DNA from: Escherichia coli
GTDB lineage: Bacteria > Pseudomonadota > Gammaproteobacteria > Enterobacterales > Enterobacteriaceae
Assembly (NCBI RefSeq): GCF_044647545.1
Contig: NZ_CP172818.1
Reading direction: 5' to 3' (one strand)
Length of the DNA: 64,000 bases
The notes under the pieces were generated by a model. It saw only the letters and a list, made by a program, of their open reading frames with translations, had not been told where the DNA came from and did not search any database. This document shows positions 42,245 to 43,838 of this stretch, in pieces. The position numbers and the translations under genes are program-made. Position 1 is the stretch's first letter. Each line of letters begins with the position of its first letter.

Positions 42245-43838
42245 TTCGCCCCGGTAGTTTTTCAATCACAGTAAACAGCAGAAAACAGAGTAGCAGCATA
42301 ATTAACGCGGTGACCGCGCCGTCCTGGCTGCGATAGGAGCCAATTTGCTGGTAGAGATAAAACGGCAGGGTACGGAAATCATCGTTACCGAACAACGCCA
42401 CCACGCCAAAATCACCAATCGACAGCACACAAGCAAAAGCCAGCGCCTGCGCCAGCGGGCGTTTCAGGGCGCGCAGCTCCACCACTTTTAAGCGCGACCA
42501 GCCTTCAATGCCCAGCGACTGACATAACATGCTGTAGCGGGCGGTGATATCGCGCATTGGGTTTTCCAGCACTTTCAGCGCATAAGGGATCGCCATTAAC
42601 GCATTGGTGAAAATCACAATGCCGTCAGCAGATTGTGGCAGGCCGATAGTGTTGTTGAGCAGTAAAAAGAAGCCGGTAGCCAGCACAATCCCCGGCATAG
42701 CGAGGATCAACATGCCGCTCATCTCAAGCGCCTGGCCGGCCAGCATTTTCTGCCGCGCCCGAAGTTCGCGACTGCTCCATAGCAGCATCATGGTCAGCAC
42801 TACGCACAATACGCCTGCCGCCAGCGCAATACGCAACGAGGTCCACAGCGCCTGCCACAGCACCGGTTGTGCCAGCACTTCCGGCAACTGGCGATTTACC
42901 CCATCGACGATCACCGCCAGTAACGGTGGCAGCAATAGCAGCAGCGCCAGCACAATTAACACCGTGTCGCAAATGCGGCTATGCAGACGATCGTCCGGGT
43001 CGCGCCAGCCTTGCAGCAGCGTGGTGCCTGGCGCAATGGCCTTACTCAATCGCTGACTCAGCAGCACCAGCCCAAGGCAACACACCATCTGGATCAGCGC
43101 AAGCATCGCCGCGCGGGCAGGATCGTAGTCGTAACTCAGCGCCTGATAAATAGCCAGCTCGATAGTGGTCGCCTGCGGACCGCCCCCCAGCGATAGCACG
43201 GTGGCGAAGCTGGCGAAACAGAGCATAAAGATAAGCGCAGCAACTGGCGGGATTTGTCGACGTAACCACGGCCATTCGACAAAGCGGAAAAAATGCCAGC
43301 CGCGCATCCCAAGTTGTGCGGCAAGTTGACGTTGTTCGCCGGGAATGTTTTCCAGTGCCTGGAGTAATAAACGGCTCGCCATCGGCAGATTAAAAAACAC
43401 ATGGGCCAGCAAAATGCCTTGCAGGCCGTAGGGCGAAAAGGTCCACTCCAGACCAAGTGATTGCCAGAGCGAGGCCAGCCAGCCCTGGCGACCATAGACG
43501 CTAAGAATGCCGAAAACAGCGACCAGCACCGGGAGGATCAAGGTCATTGCGCACAGACGCAACAGCGCCAGCCGACCCGGAAAGCACCTGCGATAGAGGG
43601 CGCGGGCGAGGAATATCGCGGGTACGACAGAGAGCAGCGCCGAGAGAAACGCCTGCCAGAAGGAGAAGCGCACCACATGCCACAGATAGCTGTCCTGCCA
43701 GACTGCCACCCAGTCACCCTGCGGCGCGTTCCACCACAGGGCGAGAAACGCCGCCAGCGCAACCGCCACCACAAGCGTAGCGGCGCTTACACCTGGAATT
43801 AACCAGCCGGGAATTAACGGCTGACGGCGCGTTGCCAT
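42228..43838 (-). CDS. thiP: thiamine ABC transporter permease ThiP
   Basis: 536 aa two-domain permease. Confidence 0.94.

What the first reader, a model, noticed from the sequence alone, without database searches (positions are those of the whole stretch)
43814..43838. Dense translational coupling by overlapping start/stop codons across several operons
thiP/thiB overlap by 25 nt, thiQ/thiP by 17 nt, kefF/kefC by 8 nt, and fixC/fixX, rsmA/pdxA, rsmH/ftsL, ftsI/murE and murE/murF by 4-14 nt; pdxA/surA and leuB/leuA share one nucleotide. This is expected for these operons and supports the start-codon choices made above.
Basis: seen in the sequence. Interest (0 to 1): 0.1.

Follow-up and report, generated by a model that had tools for sequence, protein, structure and literature searches.

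The report
Ordinary start/stop gene overlaps in E. coli
The ten small overlaps between neighbouring genes are real, but they are the standard, already catalogued gene layout of E. coli, and the only slightly notable one is the 25-base thiB/thiP overlap, whose length is identical in very distant bacteria.

Summary
The window is an E. coli chromosome segment (carB to murF, 95-99.7% identical to K-12). All ten claimed junctions are exactly as described:
- thiB/thiP -25 (43814-43838)
- thiP/thiQ -17
- ftsI/murE -14
- kefF/kefC -8
- fixC/fixX, pdxA/rsmA, rsmH/ftsL and murE/murF -4
- surA/pdxA and leuA/leuB -1

They match the K-12 RefSeq and PGAP annotations. The five K-12 pairs I looked up, including all four overlaps of 8 nt or more, are listed in a published table (Huber et al. 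2023).

The window is not unusually dense. 13 of 42 co-directional pairs lie within -8..+6 nt, against 24% genome-wide (p = 0.18).

The flagged thiB/thiP overlap is a genuine two-frame coding segment. It is the single most conserved 25-nt stretch of thiB-thiP across four enterobacterial genera. Its length is exactly 25 nt in six distant homologues (ThiP 35-59% identical; GC 26-70% in the five with DNA). GGA lies at -10..-8 in all nine sequences read.

Translational coupling itself is inferred, not shown. For -25 nt, published synthetic constructs showed no reinitiation coupling.

Verdict: already known, low interest. The geometry is confirmed; the coupling interpretation is only partly supported.

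The parts
43814..43838 (-). thiB/thiP 25-nt out-of-frame overlap (ATGGCAACGCGCCGTCAGCCGTTAA). It encodes the ThiB C-terminus WQRAVSR* and the ThiP N-terminus MATRRQPL.
   Evidence: It has 1 variable site of 25 and is the unique most conserved of all 2,515 25-nt windows across four genera. The length is exactly 25 nt in L004-L006, L009-L013 and one JGI contig.
43846..43848 (-). GGA at -10..-8 of the thiP start, a weak Shine-Dalgarno-like core lying inside thiB codons (Trp-Ile)
   Evidence: Present at the same position in all 9 aligned sequences. This includes L013, where the ThiB residues differ (Leu-Asp). Anti-SD duplex dG is only -3.5 kcal/mol.
42228..42244 (-). thiP/thiQ 17-nt overlap
   Evidence: Conserved in Salmonella and K. 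aerogenes, with 3 of 17 sites variable, which is not exceptional. The length is 4-23 nt in distant homologues. It is replaced by a 78-nt spacer in Buttiauxella.
44828..44927 (-). TPP riboswitch in the thiB leader (context: it controls the thiBPQ operon)
   Evidence: Rfam RF00059, 66.1 bits, E = 9e-11. Annotated as a riboswitch in L003.
17029..17036 (+). kefF/kefC 8-nt overlap (ATGGATAG), with a strong SD inside kefF
   Evidence: SD dG -10.3. Huber Table S2 gives -8 and 'complex yes'.
14722..14725 (+). fixC/fixX ATGA overlap
   Evidence: SD dG -8.2. COG pair median -3.3, n = 224.
21887..21890 (-). pdxA/rsmA(ksgA) ATGA overlap, with no SD upstream of rsmA
   Evidence: SD dG +0.6. COG pair median -4, n = 464. 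The title of Roa et al. 1989 is cited.
22876..22876 (-). surA/pdxA TAATG, one shared nucleotide, with no SD upstream of pdxA
   Evidence: SD dG -1.9. COG pair median +2, q1 -4.
50798..50798 (-). leuA/leuB TGATG, one shared nucleotide
   Evidence: COG pair median +16.9, so the overlap is not widely conserved.
59871..59874 (+). rsmH/ftsL ATGA overlap
   Evidence: COG pair median -4, n = 381.
62005..62018 (+). ftsI/murE 14-nt overlap, with a GTG start for murE
   Evidence: SD dG -8.0. Huber Table S2 gives -14.
63489..63492 (+). murE/murF ATGA overlap (murF runs off the window end)
   Evidence: SD dG -9.7. COG pair median -4, q1 -4, q3 -0.1, n = 967.

Best explanation
These are ordinary co-directional gene overlaps within E. 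coli operons. The downstream gene's ribosome-binding site and start codon lie inside the last codons of the upstream gene, in a different reading frame.

Shown: the geometry, its identity with curated annotation, and, for thiB/thiP, that both frames are constrained.

Inferred for the seven junctions at -8, -4 and -1 nt: a ribosome finishing the upstream gene most likely reinitiates, or hands over, at the adjacent start codon (termination-reinitiation coupling). This helps to balance the output of neighbouring genes. rsmA and pdxA, which lack any Shine-Dalgarno sequence, would depend on it most.

The 25-nt thiB/thiP overlap is an ancient, fixed-length dual-coding segment. ThiB ends ...W-I-x-x-W-x-x-A-V-S-R-stop and ThiP begins M-A-x-R-x-Q-P. 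One conserved thiB Trp codon (TGG plus the following A) supplies the GGA at -10..-8. The next Trp codon, with the preceding A, supplies the thiP ATG.

Inferred for thiP: initiation probably relies on this weak internal site. Ribosomes translating thiB help by keeping the site unfolded, or a post-termination subunit moves back about 22 nt. In that case TPP-riboswitch control of thiB translation would carry over to thiP.

The -17 (thiP/thiQ) and -14 (ftsI/murE) overlaps look like incidental tails of the upstream protein lying over a normal internal ribosome-binding site.
For: - Geometry and annotation.
- The five K-12 pairs looked up (-25, -17, -14, -8 and murE/murF -4) are listed in Huber 2023 Table S2. 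Cross-phylum medians of about -4 hold for MurE>MurF, RsmH>FtsL, PdxA>RsmA and FixC>FixX. ThiP>ThiQ has median -14. ThiB>ThiP has first quartile exactly -25.
- The thiP start is the only candidate codon: the next in-frame starts are GTGs at +66 and +69 with no SD.
- The ThiP N-terminal motif MAxRxQ(P/S) recurs in homologues down to 35% identity.
- The overlap is exactly 25 nt in 3 other enterobacterial genera and 6 distant homologues.
- The overlap has 1 variable site against a mean of 9.7 per 25-nt window, and is the unique minimum of 2,515 windows.
- GGA lies at -10..-8 in all 9 sequences.
- Experimental coupling of native E. coli pairs has been published for -1 nt overlaps, and 4 of 5 E. coli overlapping pairs tested were coupled.
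- rsmA and pdxA have no SD.
- A TPP riboswitch lies upstream of thiB.
Against: - No experiment on any of these ten junctions was found.
- For -25 nt, the review of synthetic constructs reports no coupling (Tian & Salis).
- No conserved RNA structure sequesters the thiP start. The consensus fold is -4.7 kcal/mol with negligible covariation, and local hairpin z-scores range from -2.1 to +1.7.
- The constant 25-nt length could follow simply from protein-level constraint on both termini.
- thiP/thiQ overlap length varies from 4 to 23 nt and is dispensable in Buttiauxella.
- The LeuA>LeuB median spacing is +16.9.
- bioB/bioF shows that an overlap can exist without coupling.
Confidence: 0.85

Rival explanations
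1. The longer overlaps (-25, -17, -14) are annotation artefacts. The real start codons lie further downstream and the genes do not overlap.
For: Long overlaps are rarer than -4 and -1. thiP has only a weak SD (dG -3.5). murE has an alternative TTG at 62020, one nucleotide after the ftsI stop, with SD dG -5.9.
Against: - thiP has no other start codon before +66 nt, which lies inside the first hydrophobic segment.
- The residues encoded by the overlap are conserved down to 35% identity.
- The overlap is the most conserved 25 nt of the two genes.
- The thiQ ATG has the best SD among its candidates, and MLKL is conserved.
- The murE GTG has the strongest SD (-8.0).
- K-12 curated annotation and PGAP agree.
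Confidence: 0.04
2. The overlaps are neutral by-products of start- and stop-codon turnover in compact operons. Each downstream gene is initiated independently at its own internal ribosome-binding site, with no functional coupling.
For: - thiP/thiQ overlap varies from 4 to 23 nt, and in Buttiauxella it is replaced by a 78-nt spacer with its own SD.
- The ThiP C-terminal tail is poorly conserved, and conservation of the 17-nt overlap is unexceptional.
- Strong SDs precede kefC, murF, fixX and murE.
- LeuA>LeuB and SurA>PdxA are usually not overlapping in other species.
- bioBF is a tested example of an overlap without coupling.
Against: - The -4 and -1 configurations are strongly over-represented here and genome-wide.
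- They were experimentally coupled in 4 of 5 native E. coli pairs.
- rsmA and pdxA have no SD for independent initiation.
- The thiB/thiP length is fixed across genomes of 26-70% GC.
Confidence: 0.25
3. thiB/thiP coupling works by RNA unfolding. A hairpin pairs the thiP SD region (GGAUUAGCG) with the segment around the thiB stop codon (CGUUAAUUC). A ribosome reaching the thiB stop melts it and exposes the thiP site just behind it.
For: This hairpin is the predicted minimum-energy fold in E. coli, Salmonella and Buttiauxella. The 120-nt E. coli context has z = -3.1. The review considers unfolding the more likely mechanism for large overlaps.
Against: The hairpin is absent in K. aerogenes and in L009, L010 and L013. 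The 47-nt z-score in E. coli is only -0.8. The consensus structure retains only a 5+2 bp stem, with almost no covariation.
Confidence: 0.15

Closest known systems
Co-directional overlapping gene pairs with start/stop overlap (ATGA, TAATG/TGATG, NTGNNTGA), as catalogued by Huber et al. 2019 and 2023 and reviewed by Brown & Wade 2025
   Same: Seven of the ten junctions are exactly these motifs (-4, -1, -8). All are same-strand, out of frame and within operons. Three pairs are marked as heteromeric-complex partners (KefF/KefC, ThiB/ThiP, ThiP/ThiQ).
   Different: Three junctions (-14, -17, -25) lie outside the -8..+10 nt range that those authors treat as predictive of reinitiation coupling.
trpB-trpA and other classic translationally coupled E. 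coli pairs (Oppenheim & Yanofsky 1980; Das & Yanofsky 1984 and 1989, as cited in the review)
   Same: A stop/start overlap with the downstream ribosome-binding site inside the upstream gene.
   Different: Coupling was demonstrated experimentally for the trp genes. None of the ten junctions here has such evidence in the sources I could read.
MS2 coat/lysis overlap (-50 nt), an RNA-unfolding or termination-dependent restart upstream of the stop codon
   Same: A start codon well upstream of the upstream gene's stop, as in thiB/thiP (-25).
   Different: MS2 has a defined inhibitory hairpin. No conserved structure was found at thiB/thiP.
pdxA-ksgA overlap in the surA-pdxA-ksgA-apaG-apaH operon (Roa, Connolly & Winkler 1989; reference seen; the content is from my own recollection of the title only)
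   Same: The same junction as window 21887-21890.
   Different: None. It is the same locus in another E. coli strain.

Membership tests
Co-directional start/stop-overlapping gene pair | Adjacent genes on the same strand, with the downstream start codon at or before the upstream stop codon and in a different frame | tested here: met
   All ten junctions. Overlap lengths 1, 4, 8, 14, 17 and 25 are never multiples of 3.
Co-directional start/stop-overlapping gene pair | [quoted passage not shown] | tested here: inconclusive
   Well supported for thiP by conservation and the lack of alternatives. For the others it is supported only by agreement with K-12 and PGAP annotation and by SD scores. No start-site profiling or N-terminal data could be retrieved.
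Termination-reinitiation (TeRe) translational coupling | Stop-to-start spacing within about -8..+10 nt | tested here: met
   Met for 7 junctions (-8, four at -4, two at -1). Not met for ftsI/murE (-14), thiP/thiQ (-17) and thiB/thiP (-25) (criterion).
Termination-reinitiation (TeRe) translational coupling | Shine-Dalgarno motif inside the upstream gene, which was important in 4 of 5 tested E. coli pairs | tested here: inconclusive
   Strong for kefC, murF, fixX and murE (-8 to -10 kcal/mol). Moderate for ftsL, leuB and thiQ. Weak for thiP (-3.5). Absent for rsmA (+0.6) and pdxA (-1.9).
Termination-reinitiation (TeRe) translational coupling | Downstream translation depends on ribosomes reaching the upstream stop codon | not testable with these tools
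   This needs two-reporter constructs with premature stop codons, as.
thiBPQ thiamine ABC-transporter operon under a TPP riboswitch | Periplasmic binding protein, permease and ATPase genes in a row, preceded by a TPP riboswitch | tested here: met
   95.8-96.6% identity to K-12 thiB, thiP and thiQ. Pfam SBP_bac, BPD_transp_1 and ABC_tran hit the orthologous loci. Rfam TPP riboswitch at 44828-44927.

The most novel reading that the evidence does not exclude
The exact 25-nt thiB/thiP overlap, with GGA fixed at -10..-8, might be a selected, distance-specific coupling device rather than a passive dual-coding relic. It would transmit TPP-riboswitch control of thiB translation to thiP, at a spacing where synthetic constructs show no reinitiation. 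That would imply a mechanism not captured by current models, such as standby binding behind the terminating ribosome or backward movement of the post-termination subunit. The evidence here is the invariant length across genomes of 26-70% GC and ThiP identity down to 35%, and GGA being kept even where the ThiB residues change.
Probability: 0.15. Interest if true: 0.35.

Novelty: already known. Interest (0 to 1): 0.08.

Why it matters
It matters little beyond confirming that the annotation of this window is sound. Start/stop overlaps are a textbook feature of bacterial operons, and the five pairs I looked up, including all the longer overlaps, are in a published list.

The small added value is twofold. 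First, it shows by comparison, not by the overlap itself, that the thiP start is right. Second, it shows that the 25-nt thiB/thiP overlap is deeply conserved at a spacing for which coupling by reinitiation has been reported as absent. That makes it a reasonable natural test case for anyone studying coupling at long overlaps.

Tried and rejected
- Start-site ribosome profiling. The supplements of the tetracycline-inhibited profiling paper (PMC4909307) contain none of the gene names or b-numbers searched. The retapamulin preprint has no held supplements. I therefore found no direct start-site evidence.
- Roa et al. 1989 on the pdxA/ksgA overlap is not held. Only its citation was seen.
- A conserved RNA structure at the thiB/thiP junction was sought with single folds, an alignment fold and shuffles. 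It is not conserved and not significant, so I rejected it as an established feature.
- The 763-aa ThiP-ThiQ 'fusion' proteins were considered as natural fusions at the overlap. None of the 5,398 complete E. coli genomes with a match has the one-base deletion, so these are probably homopolymer errors in draft assemblies.
- 'Dense' coupling was rejected, because the frequency does not differ from the genome average.
- Mis-annotation of the thiP start was rejected.

Full report
**What the window is.** K-12 MG1655 genes from carB to murF map colinearly onto the window. Most are 95-99.7% identical. A 4-kb piece around the finding is 99.7% identical to several E. coli chromosomes, and 5,399 of 5,426 complete E. 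coli genomes hold a match. The finding therefore concerns a well-annotated stretch of the E. coli chromosome.

**Checking the observation.** I transferred the K-12 RefSeq CDS coordinates to the window. Each CDS has a start codon, a stop codon and no internal stop. I then computed the distance between every pair of co-directional neighbours.

| Upstream/downstream | Spacing (nt) | Window coordinates |
|---|---|---|
| thiB/thiP | -25 | 43814-43838 |
| thiP/thiQ | -17 | 42228-42244 |
| ftsI/murE | -14 | 62005-62018 |
| kefF/kefC | -8 | 17029-17036 |
| fixC/fixX | -4 | 14722-14725 |
| pdxA/rsmA | -4 | 21887-21890 |
| rsmH/ftsL | -4 | 59871-59874 |
| murE/murF | -4 | 63489-63492 |
| surA/pdxA | -1 | 22876 |
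| leuA/leuB | -1 | 50798 |

PGAP annotates the thi junctions the same way in a 99.7%-identical genome.

**Is it more than chance, and is it 'dense'?** Among the 21 close pairs, four at -4 and six at -4 or -1 are unlikely under a uniform null (p = 0.003 and 0.001). This is the known genome-wide bias. The window is not special, though. 13 of 42 co-directional pairs (31%) lie in -8..+6 nt, against 707 of 2,987 (24%) in E. coli as a whole (Huber et al. 2023); p = 0.18.

**Already catalogued.**
- Huber et al. 2023, Supplementary Table S2, lists kefF-kefC -8, thiP-thiQ -17, thiB-thiP -25, ftsI-murE -14 and murE-murF -4 for K-12.
- Their Table S4 gives spacing per COG pair over 1,695 species as median/q1/q3:

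| COG pair | Median | q1 | q3 | n |
|---|---|---|---|---|
| MurE>MurF | -4 | -4 | -0.1 | 967 |
| RsmH>FtsL | -4 | -4 | 3 | 381 |
| PdxA>RsmA | -4 | -4 | 14 | 464 |
| FixC>FixX | -3.3 | -4 | 1.6 | 224 |
| KefF-like>KefB/C | -1 | -8 | 1 | 189 |
| permease>ThiQ | -14 | -17 | -8 | 184 |
| ThiB>permease | -1 | -25 | 23.6 | 318 |
| SurA>PdxA | +2 | -4 | 18 | 487 |
| LeuA>LeuB | +16.9 | 0.9 | 62.2 | 321 |

- Some of the overlaps are therefore deeply conserved. Others (leuA/leuB, surA/pdxA) are local.
- The pdxA/ksgA overlap is the subject of a 1989 paper whose citation I saw but could not read.

**The flagged thiB/thiP junction: start codon.** The ATG at 43838 is the only in-frame start candidate. 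The next ones are two GTGs at +66 and +69 with no Shine-Dalgarno sequence. A search of 1.84 billion representative proteins found full-length ThiP homologues down to 35% identity that begin with the same motif: MATSRQS, MAKRYQS, MAKRSQS, MAQRYQP, MAERGQS, VAERRQP, MAARAQP, MVTRGYP.

**The flagged junction: overlap length.** I fetched DNA for three other enterobacterial genera (Salmonella, Klebsiella aerogenes, Buttiauxella) and looked up six distant homologues. DNA was available for five of the six. In every case the called thiB and thiP genes overlap by exactly 25 nt. The genomes with DNA range from 26% to 70% GC. The ThiB C-terminus reads W-I-x-x-W-x-x-A-V/I-S-R/Q-stop and ThiP begins M-A-x-R-x-Q-P.

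**The flagged junction: nucleotide conservation.** Across the four enterobacterial genera, 39% of the 2,540 aligned thiB-thiP positions vary, and an average 25-nt window has 9.7 variable sites. The overlap has one. It is the unique minimum among all 2,515 windows. This is what two simultaneously constrained reading frames predict, and it confirms the start-codon choice independently of the overlap itself.

**The flagged junction: ribosome-binding site.** GGA sits at -10..-8 of the thiP start in all nine sequences. One of these is L013, where the ThiB residues at that place are Leu-Asp instead of Trp-Ile. This hints at a nucleotide-level constraint for a weak Shine-Dalgarno core (anti-SD dG only -3.5 kcal/mol in E. 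coli).

**The other long overlap, thiP/thiQ.** It is 17 nt in E. coli, Salmonella and K. aerogenes. It is 23, 8, 8, 4, 8 and 14 nt in the distant homologues. In Buttiauxella an insertion separates the called genes by 78 nt, and thiQ has its own AAGGATGAAGGGA-ATG site. The ThiP tail is variable (NVKTD, HAKTD, DAKTQ), and conservation of the 17 nt is unexceptional, since 22% of windows are as conserved. This looks like an incidental protein tail lying over an internal ribosome-binding site.

**Mechanism: what is shown and what is inferred.**
- Shown: the geometry, dual-frame constraint at thiB/thiP, and the SD strengths.
- SD strengths are strong for kefC -10.3, murF -9.7, fixX -8.2 and murE -8.0. 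There is none for rsmA (+0.6) or pdxA (-1.9).
- Inferred: coupling. Published two-reporter experiments found coupling in 4 of 5 native overlapping E. coli pairs, with bioB/bioF the exception. They also found a steep loss of reinitiation as the stop is moved away from the start.
- Huber et al. treat -8..+10 nt as predictive of termination-reinitiation. Seven of the ten junctions qualify. The SD-less rsmA and pdxA are the most likely to depend on it.
- For larger overlaps, the Brown & Wade review summarises that coupling falls faster with overlap than with spacing. It also reports that Tian & Salis saw none at -25 nt, and it suggests RNA unfolding by the upstream ribosome as the more likely mode for large overlaps.

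**Search for an unfolding structure at thiB/thiP.** In E. coli, Salmonella and Buttiauxella the minimum-energy fold pairs GGAUUAGCG (the thiP SD region) with CGUUAAUUC (around the thiB stop). The hairpin is absent in K. aerogenes and in three distant sequences. Its z-scores are unremarkable (-2.1 to +1.7). The alignment fold keeps only a short stem with negligible covariation (-4.7 kcal/mol). How thiP initiation is linked to thiB translation, if at all, therefore remains open. A TPP riboswitch precedes thiB, so any coupling would extend riboswitch control to thiP. That is inference.

**Comparison and verdict.** The junctions belong to the well-known class of co-directional start/stop overlaps. 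Membership in 'termination-reinitiation coupled pairs' is met on spacing for seven, not met for three, and is experimentally untestable here. Nothing is new in kind. The only modest addition is the demonstration that the thiB/thiP overlap has a fixed 25-nt length and is extremely conserved across very distant genomes. Interest is low.

**Dead ends.**
- No start-site profiling or N-terminal data could be retrieved for these genes.
- Apparent 763-aa ThiP-ThiQ fusions arise from loss of one G in the GGGG run just before the thiQ ATG. No complete E. coli genome has this deletion, so they are probably assembly errors.

Noticed in passing
window 45120-45716: About 600 nt are made almost entirely of long homopolymer runs (A runs up to 30, G runs up to 17; 325 A of 596), unlike anything else in the window. 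The stretch replaces an 846-nt segment that carries the T3SS effector gene espY2 in the closest genomes (L003 6128-6973). It also removes the last codons and the stop of sgrR, whose ORF then runs on to 45660. It looks like a sequencing or assembly artefact, or a corrupted stretch.
   Followed up: partly
window 47570-47690: setA, which lies between sgrT and leuD in K-12, is absent here, as in the closest E. coli genomes. The sgrT match covers only 110 of 132 nt.
   Followed up: no
L007 3085-3100 and L008 (homologous to window 42244-42255): 763-aa ThiP-ThiQ fusion ORFs appear in draft and Logan assemblies. They are caused by GGGG>GGG just upstream of the thiQ ATG, and 13 such protein clusters appear. 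None of the 5,398 complete E. coli genomes with a match carries the deletion, so they are probably homopolymer errors. They illustrate how a one-base indel at an overlap fuses two genes.
   Followed up: yes
L006 3095-3216 (Buttiauxella): An insertion of roughly 100 nt between thiP and thiQ abolishes the overlap, gives ThiP a different 9-residue-longer tail, and leaves thiQ with its own strong Shine-Dalgarno sequence. This is a natural uncoupled variant.
   Followed up: partly
window 21890-21912 and 22876-22898 (minus strand): rsmA and pdxA have no detectable Shine-Dalgarno complementarity upstream of their overlapping starts (dG +0.6 and -1.9 kcal/mol). They are the junctions most likely to depend on reinitiation.
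   Followed up: no
window 62020-62022: An in-frame TTG lies one nucleotide after the ftsI stop, with SD dG -5.9. It is a conceivable non-overlapping alternative start for murE, five codons downstream of the annotated GTG.
   Followed up: no
window 27934-28653: yabP is a single intact 239-codon ORF here, whereas K-12 annotates split yabP and yabQ. Identity to K-12 drops to 83-93% at this locus.
   Followed up: no
window 35962-36183 and 8374-8501: The araA-araD and caiA-caiB intergenic regions carry repeated palindromic units (gcctgatgcgacgctg...ggccggataa) typical of REP/BIME elements (sequences printed).
   Followed up: no
L011 (CP062474.1, 575-kb record, locus GC 26%): Even this small, AT-rich genome record keeps thiB-thiP-thiQ with the exact 25-nt thiB/thiP overlap and an 8-nt thiP/thiQ overlap. 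The organism was not identified.
   Followed up: no
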